The notes beneath the pieces were generated by a model. The model worked only from the letters and a program-made list of their open reading frames with translations, was not told where the DNA came from and made no database searches. From a virus (lineage: Duplodnaviria; Heunggongvirae; Uroviricota; Caudoviricetes): a stretch of DNA of 2,498 nt. Both the position numbers and the translations under genes were made by a program. The DNA lies in IMG/VR virus record IMGVR_UViG_3300014846_000086; one strand, 5' to 3'. Positions 1 to 2,498 of the stretch are shown piece by piece; the first letter of the stretch is position 1; every line of letters begins with the position of its first letter.

Positions 1-324
1 GTGGCGCAGTCTGCAAATGGCGTCTTTGTGTCTCTTCCTGACGTCGAGGATGTGGACAACGCCGATATTAACCAGCGCCTGCTGGAAGTCATTGAACAGA
101 TTGGCAGTTATTCCAGACAGATTCGTTCGGCAATCGAAGACGGTGTGGTGGAACCGCATGAGAAGACAGCAATTAACGACGAGCTGTATCTCTCAATTTC
201 GAAGCTGCAGGAGCATGCAGCACTGGTCTACAAAATCTTTTGCATTTCAGAAAGTAATGACGCCCGCGAGTGTGCAGCTCCGGGCGCCGTGGCGTGTCGT
301 GACTGTGGAGAAACTAACGCATGA
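1..324 (+). CDS. hypothetical acidic protein, 5'-partial (CDS almost certainly begins upstream of the window)
   Basis: Frame 1 is open from base 1 to TGA at 322-324. The translation is protein-like (acidic, helical-looking) and has no internal Met, so the only in-window start would be GTG at 1. The stop overlaps the next ATG (ATGA at 321-324). The alternative frame 17-415 has W/C/R-rich composition typical of out-of-frame sequence. No family recognised. Confidence 0.55.
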
Positions 325-659
325 ACAGTTTAACAACACACTACCGTCGCTCGCAACTGATTGCGCTTCCTGTACCGGGTGGAAAAGCGAAGGTGGAGTA
401 TTGCTATGCAGTTAATGTACCAGGTGACAGGGAAATTGTAACCCACAGCTTTGCTGAGTGGGCTGTGGGTGATTTCAACCGGCAGAAGGAGACAGTCCTT
501 TGCGACAAGTTAACCGCTGGTTCAAAGATCACTACGGAGTGCCCGTCAGAGTCATTCGTTGGGAGCCGGAAACACAACGAGTTATCTACCTCCGCGAAGG
601 CTATGAGCATGAGTGCTTCAGCCCGCTCGAACAGTTTCGTCGTAAATTCAGGGAAATAG
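321..659 (+). CDS. hypothetical protein; first ~60 codons credible, 3' portion probably out of frame (see frame-change finding)
   Basis: ATG 321 overlaps the upstream stop (ATGA), with GGAG at 307-310 ten nt upstream. The N-terminal translation [59 protein letters not shown] looks protein-like. After about 500 the frame-0 translation becomes Ser-rich and low-complexity, while frame +2 becomes strongly protein-like. Confidence 0.4.
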
Positions 660-679
660 AGGTCGGTCATGAGCACTAA
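500..679 (+). CDS. frame +2 ORF: either the frameshifted 3' part of the 321 gene or an independent small gene with a TTG start
   Basis: Frame 2 is open from 473 to TAA at 677-679 and translates to ...[59 protein letters not shown]. It contains no ATG. TTG at 500-502 is preceded by AAGGAGA (486-492) with a 7-nt spacer. It is absent from the ORF track, presumably because it lacks an ATG start. Confidence 0.4.
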
Positions 680-932
680 ATTAACCGGCTATGTATGGGA
701 TGGTTGCGCTGCATCAGGCATGAAATTATCCAGCGTGGCAATTATGGCCCGCCTGGCTGATTTCAGTAATGACGAAGGTGTGTGCTGGCCATCAATTGAA
801 ACCATTGCCCGCCAGATTGGCGCGGGGATGAGTACCGTCAGAACGGCTATCGCACGGCTGGAAGCAGAAGGCTGGTTAACGCGTAAGGCGCGTCGCCAGG
901 GTAACGAACCAACCCGACAGGAGAAGTCATGA
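669..932 (+). CDS. small winged-helix / helix-turn-helix DNA-binding protein (HTH_36 / PF13730-like), 87 aa
   Basis: ATG 669 has GAGG at 659-662 six nt upstream. The segment SSVAIMARLADFSNDEGVCWPSIETIARQIGAGMSTVRTAIARLEAEGWLTRKARRQG has the look of the wHTH domain found in small DNA-binding proteins of P4-like islands and in replication-initiator N-termini (recalled, not searched). The stop overlaps the next start (ATGA at 929-932). Confidence 0.75.
   Translation: MSTKLTGYVWDGCAASGMKLSSVAIMARLADFSNDEGVCWPSIETIARQIGAGMSTVRTAIARLEAEGWLTRKARRQGNEPTRQEKS
919..924 (+). promoter_or_regulatory. Shine-Dalgarno (AGGAGA) for the sid-like gene
   Basis: AGGAGA lies 5 nt upstream of ATG 929, inside the 3' end of the HTH gene. 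Confidence 0.5.
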
Positions 933-1672
933 ACAACACCGCAGTGAATAACAACCTTTCCACTTTTCCGGCTGTAACGCAGCGGGCACTGGAAACCATG
1001 AACACAGCCAGAAACGCATGGCTTGAAGCACGTCGTCAGCAGAAAGCGGCAGCGGATAATATTGCGACAATCCGCCAGCGTCGCGCTGAAATGGAATCCA
1101 CGACGAATACACTGAATGAGGAGTGGCGCACGCTGTTTCGTGAAAGTCAGGGCGTGGTCTCAAAGGAAATGAAAAAACTGCGCACGGAAATTGCGCTGGG
1201 ACGAGAAACGCTTGAGGATTTTGATGAGCTGCTGGCGGCTCAGGAAAGCGAAAATGCACTTTTGCCGCAGAAAGCTGCGGAATTAGCCGGAAAGTATATC
1301 CACGCGCATAACATTCTTGTGGATATTCGCGCAAAACAAATCTGGGAGGATTTTATGCAGTCGCATGGAAAAGCGCTTATTCAGACGCTGAGCCTGCTTA
1401 AATCCACAATGGGCCGGGAAGCCAGTGCCGTTGTGGGTGTGGTGAATTCAGTTAATGACCCGGACACAGTGCTGAAAGACTTTATTCATAAACATATCAC
1501 CAGACCGGCTCTGGCTAACGATGCGATGCCTGAACAGGACCCGGTGTTTAAACTGGCGGGAGTTGCCCCGGATTATGCGGCGCGTCTGGATTTCAGTAAT
1601 CAACTCTCTCCAGCAGCTATGCATAAAATAAAGGTTCGTCAGGAACTTGCTGAGAAGGAGAAAGCAGTATGA
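929..1672 (+). CDS. sid: Sid-like capsid size-determination (external scaffold) protein, Sid/Psu family
   Basis: At 247 aa it is close to P4 Sid (about 244 aa as recalled). It is clearly paralogous to the adjacent Psu homolog: N-terminal NARNAWLEARRQQKA vs NARILWARHSESRKA, central FMQSHGKAL vs FMQANGAAL, C-terminal LSPAAMHKIKVRQEL vs YTPAQHLRFQQRL. It has a long charged, helical central insertion. AGGAGA at 919-924 lies 5 nt before ATG 929, and the gene sits immediately 5' of psu. Confidence 0.65.
   Translation: MNNTAVNNNLSTFPAVTQRALETMNTARNAWLEARRQQKAAADNIATIRQRRAEMESTTNTLNEEWRTLFRESQGVVSKEMKKLRTEIALGRETLEDFDELLAAQESENALLPQKAAELAGKYIHAHNILVDIRAKQIWEDFMQSHGKALIQTLSLLKSTMGREASAVVGVVNSVNDPDTVLKDFIHKHITRPALANDAMPEQDPVFKLAGVAPDYAARLDFSNQLSPAAMHKIKVRQELAEKEKAV
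1655..1660 (+). promoter_or_regulatory. Shine-Dalgarno (AAGGAG) for the psu homolog
   Basis: AAGGAG lies 8 nt upstream of ATG 1669, inside the 3' end of the sid-like gene. Confidence 0.5.
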
Positions 1673-2220
1673 CGGCCCGAGGCACACCTGACCAGGTACT
1701 TACCAGTTTTCGGAATGCCCGTATTCTGTGGGCCAGACATAGTGAGAGCCGAAAAGCCGTTGAACAACAGATAACATCTCTCCTCGCTGCCACAGAAAAA
1801 CCAGCAGATTATGCCCGACAGCTCGAATTCCTGCGGGAACGTCTGGATGTGCTGAAATGGCAAATTAACTGTGCTGCGCGCGAATGCATTTACTCGCAGC
1901 ATTTACTGATGGAGGCCTGCACAGAAGCCGCTCTCAGCAATTTTATGCAGGCGAATGGGGCAGCCCTGACATCTGCACTGGCTCCGTTCCTGAAGGGGCG
2001 CGGAGGGGTTGACGTTGCGTCCCGTATATTACGCAGTGCTCTGGTTCGCCAGCTGGCAATAACACCGCCTGAAATTGCCGGGGATTATCGTGAGATCCTG
2101 GATGAATCCGGTTTGATGCCTGACCCCAGTATGATTCGTGATTGCCAGGGCTCTTACACCCCGGCACAACATCTGCGTTTTCAGCAACGCCTGAATGACA
2201 TTAACGATATACAGGAGTGA
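1669..2220 (+). CDS. psu: phage polarity suppression protein Psu homolog (capsid decoration / Rho antagonist in P4)
   Basis: The 183-aa product (P4 Psu is about 190 aa) carries motifs I recall from P4 Psu: LKWQINCAARECIYSQH (P4: KWQVNQAAGRYIRSH), FMQANGAALTSALAPFLKG (P4: FMQQHGTALAAALAPELMG) and C-terminal YTPAQ (P4: FTPAQ). AAGGAG at 1655-1660 lies 8 nt before ATG 1669, with an ATGA overlap with the upstream gene. Confidence 0.85.
   Translation: MTARGTPDQVLTSFRNARILWARHSESRKAVEQQITSLLAATEKPADYARQLEFLRERLDVLKWQINCAARECIYSQHLLMEACTEAALSNFMQANGAALTSALAPFLKGRGGVDVASRILRSALVRQLAITPPEIAGDYREILDESGLMPDPSMIRDCQGSYTPAQHLRFQQRLNDINDIQE
2212..2217 (+). promoter_or_regulatory. Shine-Dalgarno (CAGGAG) for the Ogr/Delta-like gene
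   Basis: CAGGAG lies 8 nt upstream of ATG 2226 and overlaps the last codons of psu. Confidence 0.5.
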
Positions 2221-2225
2221 TATTA

Positions 2226-2498
2226 ATGGCACTTAAATGTCCGGAATGCGGTACAGTTGCACACGCCAGAACAGCAGCCTATGAAGCTCCGTCAGTTAAA
2301 CGCTCGTGGTATCAGTGCCAGAATCTGGAATGTTCCTGCACATTTACGGCACTGGAGAGTGTGGATAAGATAATCATGAAACCCCGGCGCAATGAACAGG
2401 AACCAGACAAATCACAAACCCCGGTAAAACAACAGCAAACGCTCAATCGCTATGGCTCCGCGTCAAAACTGTCAAGCCGTCAGCAGATTCCTGTCTGA
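2226..2498 (+). CDS. Ogr/Delta-family zinc-finger late transcriptional activator (single-domain, 90 aa)
   Basis: MALKCPECGTVAHARTAAYEAPSVKRSWYQCQNLECSCTF...ESV matches the Ogr/Delta C-x2-C-x22-C-x4-C signature (compare P2 Ogr MFHCPLCQHAAHARTSRY...HQCQNVNCSATF..ESV, recalled). CAGGAG at 2212-2217 lies 8 nt before ATG 2226. The track's GTG 2217 start adds MIL and overlaps the psu stop; I prefer 2226. Stop TGA is at 2496-2498, the last bases of the window. Confidence 0.85.
   Translation: MALKCPECGTVAHARTAAYEAPSVKRSWYQCQNLECSCTFTALESVDKIIMKPRRNEQEPDKSQTPVKQQQTLNRYGSASKLSSRQQIPV

What the first reader, a model, noticed from the sequence alone, without database searches (positions are those of the whole stretch)
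929..2220. Adjacent Sid-like and Psu-like genes are tandem paralogs, with similarity still visible at DNA level
The two products share collinear motifs at the N-terminus, centre and C-terminus (listed in the features). The central motif is also conserved in DNA: the 11-mer attttatgcag occurs at 1350-1360 and again at 1940-1950, each followed by a cg.atgg-like stretch. The Sid-like copy carries an extra charged, helical segment of roughly 60 residues (about residues 50-115), consistent with a lattice-forming external scaffold. This fits the Sid/Psu relationship I recall being noted for P4, and the pair here may be useful for dating the duplication.
Basis: seen in the sequence. Interest (0 to 1): 0.45.

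Follow-up and report, generated by a model that had tools for sequence, protein, structure and literature searches.

The report
Sid and Psu paralogs, P4-like remnant
The two adjacent genes are the capsid-size scaffold (Sid) and the decoration/anti-Rho protein (Psu) of a P4-like phage satellite; they are true but ancient paralogs, a relationship published in 2020-2021, and the shared 11-base word simply reflects a conserved protein motif.

Summary
ATTTTATGCAG sits at 1350 and 1940, in the same codon phase, encoding [D/N]FMQ. ORF 929-1672 and ORF 1669-2220 are homologous across their full length: Pfam Psu hits both, hhalign gives E 1e-5, and pairwise alignment gives z about 4.5.

AlphaFold models match P4 Sid (7JW1, TM 0.74-0.77) and P4 Psu (3RX6, TM 0.85). 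The Sid-like copy has a coiled-coil stem about 40-45 residues longer, and its tip is charged.

The claim of residual DNA-level similarity fails. Once the protein sequences are fixed, nucleotide identity, identical-codon counts and the 11-mer are all at expectation, so synonymous sites are saturated.

A joint tree puts P4 Sid with this Sid and P4 Psu with this Psu (200/200 bootstraps). The duplication therefore predates the P4-like family and cannot be dated from this pair.

Sid/Psu homology (Kizziah 2020) and the psu/delta order swap (Moura de Sousa and Rocha 2021) are already published.

The less ordinary point lies outside the finding. The window is a deletion junction (5-bp microhomology at 901-905) that fuses a lambdoid prophage O gene to a promoterless sid-psu-delta operon, and it recurs in many gut metagenome assemblies.

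The parts
929..1672 (+). sid-like gene (247 aa): external capsid-size-determining scaffold, orthologue of P4 Sid
   Evidence: phmmer against PDB: 7jw1_E Sid, E 6.4e-10, residues 12-230. PHROG 6165 full length, 7e-93. AF2 pLDDT 86.9. Foldseek top hit 7jw1_E, TM 0.74/0.77, followed by Psu 4dvd/3rx6. Pfam Psu PF07455 on residues 119-237, 38 bits, above the 27.4 cut-off.
1669..2220 (+). psu-like gene (183 aa): capsid decoration / Rho-inhibiting polarity suppression protein. Its start overlaps the sid stop (ATGA).
   Evidence: Pfam PF07455, 151 bits, residues 9-178. PDB 3rx6/4dvd, E 4e-14. AF2 pLDDT 92.2. Foldseek 3rx6, TM 0.85, rmsd 2.3.
2226..2498 (+). delta-like gene (90 aa, single Ogr/Delta zinc finger), third gene of the operon
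   Evidence: Pfam PF04606, 6.6e-16. PGAP 'ogr/Delta-like zinc finger family protein'.
1350..1368 (+). Sid copy of the 11-mer plus the cg.atgg stretch. It encodes (D)FMQSHG, the start of the dimer 'knot' region. G147 aligns with C140 of P4 Sid.
   Evidence: PMC7552001 section 3.3.
1940..1958 (+). Psu copy of the 11-mer plus the cg.atgg stretch. It encodes (N)FMQANG.
1061..1243 (+). Sid residues 45-105: distal part of the helical hairpin (stem tip). Most of it has no counterpart in Psu, and it is 36% charged.
   Evidence: hhalign gaps in Psu opposite Sid 61-83 and 98-109. AF2 helices: Sid 15-72 and 79-168 against Psu 7-40 and 48-103. Charge count.
1607..1618 (+). Sid S227-P-A-A, the start of the C-terminal helix. 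It aligns with P4 Sid T219-P-A-Q, the contact with the helper capsid protein gpN.
   Evidence: alignment; PMC7552001 section 3.3.
2158..2169 (+). Psu T164-P-A-Q. It aligns with P4 Psu T170-P171-A172-Q173 (Rho contact; also the presumed capsid-binding helix).
   Evidence: PMC11718236.
901..905 (+). GTAAC microhomology at the deletion junction between the lambdoid prophage O gene and the P4-like sid leader
669..932 (+). Truncated lambdoid replication protein O (N-terminal HTH_36 domain) with 9 foreign codons from the sid leader. Its stop overlaps the sid ATG.
   Evidence: Pfam HTH_36. PGAP 'incomplete; missing C-terminus'. The full 313-aa O gene is in L004.

Best explanation
Bases 901-2498 are the late (sid) operon of a P4-like phage satellite, in the order sid-psu-delta.

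The first gene encodes a Sid orthologue. By analogy with P4 Sid, it would form knotted dimers that straddle hexamers of a P2-like helper's capsid protein through the C-terminal [ST]PA helix. Its long, charged coiled-coil stems would meet in threes to build an external cage that forces a small capsid.

The second gene encodes a Psu orthologue. It has the same fold with a short stem. It would decorate the mature small capsid and inhibit termination factor Rho.

The two are ancient paralogs, and the duplication predates the divergence of this lineage from P4. The shared 11-mer is the nucleotide shadow of the conserved [D/N]FMQ motif at the dimer junction, not surviving DNA homology.

Shown here: homology, orthology assignments, fold, stem extension, and absence of excess DNA identity. 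Inferred from P4 work: the cage, decoration and Rho-inhibition mechanisms.
For: - Pfam Psu hits both ORFs above its cut-off.
- Profile-profile alignment covers Sid 18-240 against Psu 8-177, E 9.9e-6.
- Pairwise z is about 4.5.
- PDB sequence search: the Sid-like ORF matches 7jw1 Sid at 6.4e-10 and Psu at 7e-5; the Psu-like ORF matches 3rx6 at 4e-14.
- The AF2 models are confident. Their only Foldseek PDB hits at E<=0.001 are Sid and Psu.
- Joint NJ tree: Psu (including P4) separates from Sid (including P4) in 200/200 bootstraps.
- The Rho-contact residues of P4 Psu (R43, D49, E56, P171, A172, Q173, K180; PMC11718236) map to K44, E53, D60, P165, A166, Q167, R174.
- DNA-level controls are all at expectation.
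- The same operon follows a primase gene in an intact P4-like island at tRNA-Thr.
- Published precedent: PMC7552001 and PMC8628076.
Against: - No functional data exist for this lineage. Identity to P4 Sid is only 23% and to P4 Psu 31%.
- Only monomers were modelled, so the knotted dimer and the trimer contacts are untested.
- In this particular genome the operon has lost its Ogr/Delta-dependent promoter and the rest of the satellite, so the genes may not be expressed or used.
- The hhalign probability is 82%, not above 95%, because the profiles are shallow (Neff about 2.5).
Confidence: 0.9

Rival explanations
1. The pair is a recent tandem duplication, or the central motif was homogenised by gene conversion, so real nucleotide homology survives and could date the event.
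For: Exact 11-mer in the same codon phase at homologous codons, with 17 of 19 bases identical. The genes are directly adjacent with a 4-nt overlap.
Against: - With the proteins fixed, an exact word of 11 or more bases arises in 32% of synonymous permutations.
- The local DNA alignment score is reached in 49 of 300 permutations.
- Codon identity at conserved residues is 8 of 27 against 10 expected.
- Protein identity is only 22-28%.
- Each copy groups with its P4 orthologue in 200/200 bootstraps.
Confidence: 0.03
2. The 247-aa protein is not a size-determination scaffold. It is a second Psu-type polarity suppressor, as the database names ('phage polarity suppression protein') suggest.
For: - PGAP and PHROG label it Psu-like.
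- Its central motif DFMQSHGKAL is 8 of 10 identical to P4 Psu DFMQQHGTAL.
- It scores higher against P4 Psu (SW 90, z 9.1) than P4 Sid does (SW 35, z 0.1).
Against: - The best full-length sequence and fold match is P4 Sid.
- It belongs to the PHROG that contains P4 Sid; P4's own sid gene carries the same Psu-like label.
- The stem is lengthened by about 20 residues per arm. This displaces the coiled-coil tip that carries Psu's Rho contacts R43 and D49 (PMC11718236).
- It groups with P4 Sid, not Psu.
Confidence: 0.07
3. The resemblance is a compositional artefact of two helical, coiled-coil-rich proteins and not homology.
For: Both are all-alpha. Weak Pfam hits to unrelated coiled-coil families occur in the Sid stem. 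Lower Foldseek ranks are generic coiled coils.
Against: - Composition-preserving shuffles rarely reach the score.
- The matches lie mostly outside the stem, in the knot, linker and C-terminal helix, with conserved spacing.
- The Pfam Psu hit is above its gathering threshold.
- Sid and Psu are the only PDB folds at E<=0.001.
Confidence: 0.01

Closest known systems
Bacteriophage satellite P4 Sid (NP_042042; PDB 7JW1) and Psu (NP_042044; PDB 3RX6/4DVD)
   Same: - Same two protein families and the same fold.
- Same difference between the pair: long against short coiled-coil stem.
- Same C-terminal [ST]PA(Q) helix.
- Same operon with a delta activator.
- In intact relatives, the same pair of TGT-N12-ACA dyads at about -90 and -52 from the sid ATG.
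- The Sid/Psu paralogy and its origin by duplication were proposed in PMC7552001.
   Different: - Only 23% (Sid) and 31% (Psu) identity.
- The gene order is sid-psu-delta, not sid-delta-psu.
- Delta has one Ogr-like domain (90 aa) against 166 aa in P4.
- This Sid keeps a Psu-like central motif, so plain BLASTP detects the paralogy here. The same pairwise test scores P4 Sid against P4 Psu at z 0.1.
P4-like satellites with swapped psu and delta (about 20% of 'Type A' elements; Moura de Sousa and Rocha 2021, PMC8628076)
   Same: The sid-psu-delta order is conserved in every relative fetched here with all three genes: E. coli, Shigella, Pantoea, Mixta and Scandinavium. A defence hotspot follows, here ShosTA.
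   Different: In the intact relative the sid operon lies downstream of, and codirectional with, the primase gene, unlike P4's divergent arrangement. In the window's own genome the satellite is only a remnant fused to a lambdoid prophage.

Membership tests
Psu (Pfam PF07455; P4 polarity suppression / decoration protein): ORF 1669-2220 | Full-length sequence match to the family model above the curated cut-off | tested here: met
   151 bits against a 27.4 cut-off, residues 9-178 of 183. PHROG 6366, 1.7e-69.
Psu (Pfam PF07455; P4 polarity suppression / decoration protein): ORF 1669-2220 | Psu fold as in crystal structure 3RX6 | tested here: met
   AF2 pLDDT 92.2. Foldseek 3rx6, TM 0.85/0.84, rmsd 2.3 over 183 columns.
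Psu (Pfam PF07455; P4 polarity suppression / decoration protein): ORF 1669-2220 | Rho-contacting residues (R43, D49, E56, P171-A172-Q173, K/R180 of P4 Psu; PMC11718236) | tested here: met
   They align with K44, E53, D60, P165-A166-Q167 and R174, with charge or identity kept. P165, A166 and R174 are nearly invariant in the family alignment.
Psu (Pfam PF07455; P4 polarity suppression / decoration protein): ORF 1669-2220 | Knotted homodimer; inhibition of Rho; binding to small capsids | not testable with these tools
   Only monomer models could be made. No biochemical data.
Sid (P4 size-determination external scaffold; PDB 7JW1; PHROG 6165): ORF 929-1672 | Full-length similarity to P4 Sid that is stronger than to Psu | tested here: met
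   7jw1_E at 6.4e-10 over residues 12-230, against Psu at 7e-5 over 117-230. SW z 20 against P4 Sid. Groups with P4 Sid in 200/200 bootstraps.
Sid (P4 size-determination external scaffold; PDB 7JW1; PHROG 6165): ORF 929-1672 | Elongated two-helix coiled-coil stem, longer than in Psu, followed by the knot region, linker and C-terminal helix | tested here: met
   AF2 helices 15-72, 79-108, 112-168, 178-196 and 228-246. Foldseek 7jw1_E, TM 0.74/0.77 over 236 columns.
Sid (P4 size-determination external scaffold; PDB 7JW1; PHROG 6165): ORF 929-1672 | gpN-contacting motif at the start of the C-terminal helix (P4 Sid 219-224, TPAQRK) | tested here: inconclusive
   It aligns with SPAAMH (227-232). 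P and A are kept, T becomes S and Q becomes A. The helper capsid protein is unknown.
Sid (P4 size-determination external scaffold; PDB 7JW1; PHROG 6165): ORF 929-1672 | Redirects the helper capsid from T=7 to T=4 | not testable with these tools
   Needs co-expression with a P2-like capsid protein, or helper infection.
[quoted passage not shown] | Presence of the replication and regulation core (alpA, epsilon, alpha primase) next to sid-psu-delta | tested here: not met
   In the genome that holds the window, the genes left of sid are lambdoid (int, cI, cro, ymfL, O'), with no primase or alpA. They are present in the intact relative NZ_AP027595.1.
Functional P4-like satellite (integrase, psu, delta, sid, alpha; PMC8628076) | Ogr/Delta-responsive Psid promoter (TGT-N12-ACA dyads) upstream of sid | tested here: not met
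   Two dyads lie at about -90 and -52 in P4 and in six relatives. None lies upstream of sid in the window, which keeps only 28 bp of leader.
Recent tandem duplicate retaining nucleotide homology | Nucleotide or synonymous-site identity above what the protein alignment and codon usage predict | tested here: not met
   Nucleotide identity 0.414 against 0.416 expected. Identical codons 8 against 10.05 expected. A word of 11 or more bases arises in 32% of synonymous permutations.

The most novel reading that the evidence does not exclude
This lineage may preserve the state closest to the original duplication:
- sid and psu are still directly adjacent and translationally coupled.
- Delta has a single domain.
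- Sid still carries Psu's central and N-terminal motifs; it scores z 9 against P4 Psu, where P4 Sid scores z 0.1.

On this reading P4's sid-delta-psu order and its highly diverged Sid would be derived, and this family would be the better template for reconstructing the unduplicated capsid-binding ancestor.

My data do not root the gene-order change, so this is only not excluded.
Probability: 0.3. Interest if true: 0.3.

Novelty: already known. Interest (0 to 1): 0.12.

Why it matters
For the finding itself, little is new. It re-derives a published relationship and confirms that the annotation pipelines' habit of calling both genes 'Psu' reflects real homology.

It has some practical value:
- The first gene should be named Sid, not 'septation initiation protein', 'hypothetical protein' or a second Psu.
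- This Sid lineage makes the Sid/Psu paralogy visible to simple pairwise search, which may help profile building for satellite finders.
- A shared short DNA word between diverged paralogs should be tested against synonymous-codon controls before it is read as DNA-level conservation.

Tried and rejected
- **Residual DNA homology or gene conversion.** Tested with codon-order shuffles, synonymous-codon permutations, aligned-codon identity and local DNA alignment. All were at expectation.
- **A second same-diagonal word.** GATGCCTGA at 1525 and 2115 has the same 590-nt offset and the same phase, and looked like support for DNA homology. It pairs Sid MPE200-202 with Psu MPD150-152. The conserved G...[ST]PA spacing in all four proteins shows these are not homologous columns, because 13 residues of net indel lie in between. 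It is a chance match.
- **The zero-in-200 shuffle figure.** It tests a pre-specified word, not 'any shared 11-mer', so it was not used as evidence.
- **Rfam and promoter/terminator scans of the window.** No RNA family matched, and promoter and terminator counts equal shuffle expectation.
- **NCBIfam.** It has no model for either protein.
- **Genome-contig scan with a Psu profile.** It returned only 7 loci, too few to root the gene-order change. I did not attempt an ancestral-order inference.
- **The 2012 JBC Psu structure paper.** It is not held. Knot details were taken from PMC7552001 instead.
- **Assembly artefact as an explanation for the chimeric left part of the window.** Rejected, because the junction ORF is on record in 178 blocks of independent assemblies.
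Full report
**What is in the window.** All substantial ORFs lie on the + strand and are tightly packed:
- a cII/YmfL-like C-terminus (1-324);
- a DUF4222 ORF (500-679);
- an 87-aa HTH_36 ORF (669-932);
- a 247-aa ORF (929-1672);
- a 183-aa ORF (1669-2220);
- a 90-aa Ogr/Delta zinc-finger ORF (2226-2498).

The 669-932, 929-1672 and 1669-2220 ORFs are joined by ATGA stop/start overlaps. Pfam assigns the 183-aa protein to Psu (PF07455, 151 bits, full length). It also assigns the C-terminal half of the 247-aa protein (residues 119-237) to the same family, at 38 bits against a cut-off of 27.4.

**Check of the observation.**
- The 11-mer ATTTTATGCAG is present exactly at 1350 and 1940 and nowhere else. 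Both copies start at codon position 2 and encode D/N-F-M-Q. The next eight bases agree at six positions.
- BLASTP aligns Sid 120-237 with Psu 70-174 (22% identity, E 2e-4).
- Smith-Waterman scoring gives 55 against a shuffle mean of 32 (sd 5). Three to four of 2000 shuffles reach it, and a semi-global alignment gives z 4.75.
- I built family alignments from database homologues: 30 Sid-like and 21 Psu-like sequences from Escherichia, Salmonella, Klebsiella, Pantoea, Serratia and others. They align profile-to-profile over nearly the whole length, Sid 18-240 against Psu 8-177 (E 9.9e-6, probability 82%).
- The N-terminal (AR..W), central ([D/N]FMQxxGxAL) and C-terminal (G-x3-PD...D-x6-[ST]PA) motifs are collinear. 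They include residues invariant in both families.

**The DNA-level claim does not hold.**
- Some exact shared word of 11 or more bases appears in 12% of trials when the codon order of psu is shuffled.
- It appears in 32% of trials when both proteins are kept and only synonymous codons are permuted within each gene.
- Nucleotide identity across the 95 aligned codons is 0.414, against 0.416 +/- 0.015 expected.
- At the 27 identical residues only 8 use the same codon, against 10.05 expected.
- The best local DNA alignment (1350-1377 against 1940-1967) is matched in 49 of 300 synonymous permutations.

The 11-mer is therefore what a conserved FMQ motif gives with ordinary codon choice: Met has one codon, and Phe and Gln have two each. 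Synonymous sites carry no memory of the duplication. A second word on the same diagonal (GATGCCTGA, 1525 and 2115) pairs non-homologous residues and is chance.

**Identity of the two proteins.**
- Against PDB sequences, the 247-aa protein's best match is P4 Sid (7jw1_E, E 6.4e-10, residues 12-230), followed by P4 Psu (E 7e-5, residues 117-230).
- The 183-aa protein matches P4 Psu (E 4e-14).
- The AlphaFold2 models are confident, with pLDDT 86.9 and 92.2.
Nothing else reaches E<=0.001.
- The second model matches Psu at TM 0.85 and rmsd 2.0-2.3 A.
- PHROGs places them in two separate families: 6165, to which the Sid-like ORF matches full length, and 6366 for Psu. Both families are labelled 'Psu-like'.

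**The extra segment.**
- Sid's first helix spans 15-72, against 7-40 in Psu.
- The return helix up to the FMQ motif spans about 79-141, against 48-91.
- hhalign puts gaps in Psu opposite Sid 61-83 and 98-109.

The extension is thus about 20 residues on each arm of a helical hairpin, about 37-45 residues in all, and not one 60-residue insert. Residues 45-105 are 36% charged (10 K/R, 12 D/E), against 26% for the whole protein.

This matches the P4 description in PMC7552001. [quoted passage not shown] On the P4 structure, the central motif maps to the start of the dimer 'knot': G147 here aligns with C140, the disulfide at the twofold axis. The [ST]PA motif maps to residues 219-224 of P4 Sid, which contact the gpN 'sir loop'. 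In Psu, the same PAQ residues, together with R43, D49, E56 and K180, contact Rho (PMC11718236). They are conserved or conservatively replaced here as K44, E53, D60, P165-A166-Q167 and R174.

**Age of the duplication.** I built a joint neighbour-joining tree from 13 Sid-like and 11 Psu-like sequences, P4 Sid, P4 Psu and two extra Pantoea paralogs (180 well-occupied columns). It separates all Psu from all Sid in 200 of 200 bootstraps, and P4 Sid never pairs with P4 Psu. The duplication is therefore older than the split between this lineage and P4. [quoted passage not shown] The pair cannot date the event.

**What is known.**
- Kizziah et al. 2020 reported the Sid/Psu structural similarity, an HHpred E-value of 9e-35, about 17% identity, and origin by duplication.
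- Moura de Sousa and Rocha 2021 built the joint tree. They also reported that about 20% of complete P4-like elements have psu and delta swapped, which is the order seen here.
- Gjorgjevikj et al. 2025 call Sid a 'distant paralog' of Psu.

The finding is therefore already known.

One nuance is specific to this lineage. Its Sid is much closer to Psu than P4's Sid is:

| Pair | SW score | z |
|---|---|---|
| this Sid vs P4 Psu | 90 | 9.1 |
| this Sid vs this Psu | 55 | 4.6 |
| P4 Sid vs P4 Psu | 35 | 0.1 |

This explains why a reader could see the relationship by eye here.

**Context, outside the finding.**
- Megablast shows that only 1 of 5426 complete E. coli genomes holds the whole window: strain SW070917, which differs at one base (1193).
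- Bases 1-905 are 97-99.7% identical to lambdoid phages of the SfII/SfIV type (ymfL, DUF4222, start of replication gene O).
- Bases 901-2498 are identical to a P4-like island at tRNA-Thr in strain LR-64-2. That island has the order int, alpA, icd-like, DUF5375, primase, a 400-bp gap, sid, psu, delta, ShosA, ShosT.
- The two parents share only GTAAC at the crossover.
- The deletion removed the satellite's integrase-to-primase half and the phage's replication-to-tail half.
- It also removed both TGT-N12-ACA dyads. These lie at about -90 and -52 from the sid ATG in P4 and in all six intact relatives examined. From my own knowledge of P2/P4 late promoters, these are the Ogr/Delta binding sites; I did not verify this in a paper here.
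- The operon now follows directly on the truncated O gene of the lambdoid early-right operon.
- The chimeric 87-aa ORF is on record in 178 blocks of public assemblies, many from human gut metagenomes, and is always followed by sid-psu-delta-ShosA-ShosT. The junction is therefore real and circulating, not a misassembly.

**Verdict.** The protein-level observation and the paralogy interpretation are correct but already published. The DNA-level and dating claims are not supported. Interest is low for the finding as stated.

Noticed in passing
window 901-905 (context: 1-932; L001 6822-17134): The window is a deletion junction. A lambdoid (SfII-like) prophage, truncated inside replication gene O, is joined through a 5-bp GTAAC microhomology to the sid leader of a P4-like satellite that used the same tRNA-Thr site. 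What remains is int...cI-cro-ymfL-O'|sid-psu-delta-ShosA-ShosT.
   Followed up: yes
window 669-932; loci L012-L018: The chimeric 87-aa O' ORF is on record in 178 blocks of public assemblies, many of them human gut metagenomes. It always has the same right-hand neighbours but some variation in the lambdoid genes to its left. The hybrid remnant is therefore widespread, not an assembly error. Only 1 of 5426 complete E. coli genomes has it, and that one differs from the window at base 1193.
   Followed up: partly
window 901-928; L002 9938-9995; L003 (P4) 9493-9548: P4 and all six intact relatives carry two TGT-N12-ACA dyads at about -90 and -52 from the sid ATG. The window keeps only 28 bp of leader and has neither. 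sid-psu-delta may now be read through from the lambdoid early-right operon, which would put it under SOS control through the S24-peptidase repressor. Expression is untested.
   Followed up: partly
L006 6843-7655; L009 6840-7649 (Pantoea): A third Sid-family gene lies directly after delta. It is about 270 aa and 31% identical to the window's Sid over 210 residues (E 5e-27), with PHROG 6165 at 3.6e-19. It has an extra N-terminal region and no [ST]PA C-terminal helix. It groups on the Sid side of the tree in 200/200 bootstraps, and with this window's Sid family rather than P4 Sid in 143/200. Function unknown.
   Followed up: partly
L011 6001-6537 (Enterobacillus tribolii): In-frame fusion ORF of Psu residues 1-110 to a Delta zinc-finger domain, with no sid upstream. 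It looks like a decayed P4-like operon.
   Followed up: no
window 929-1672 and its database homologues: The Sid-like protein is named inconsistently in public records: 'septation initiation protein', 'hypothetical protein', 'phage polarity suppression protein', 'Phage capsid and scaffold protein'. Even the sid gene in the P4 record fetched here (NC_001609) is labelled 'polarity suppression Psu-like'.
   Followed up: no
L002 2969-14234 against L003 (P4): In the intact relative, the sid operon lies downstream of and codirectional with the primase gene, and the integrase is next to alpA. In P4 the integrase is next to the hotspot and psu, and sid is divergent from the alpA-primase operon. I did not check whether this architecture has been described.
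   Followed up: no
window 321-679: Two overlapping ORFs in different frames compete for this stretch. One is a 112-aa ORF (321-659) with no Pfam hit, called as a gene in the metagenome assemblies. The other is the 59-aa DUF4222 ORF (500-679, Pfam 8.6e-19), annotated by PGAP.
   Followed up: no
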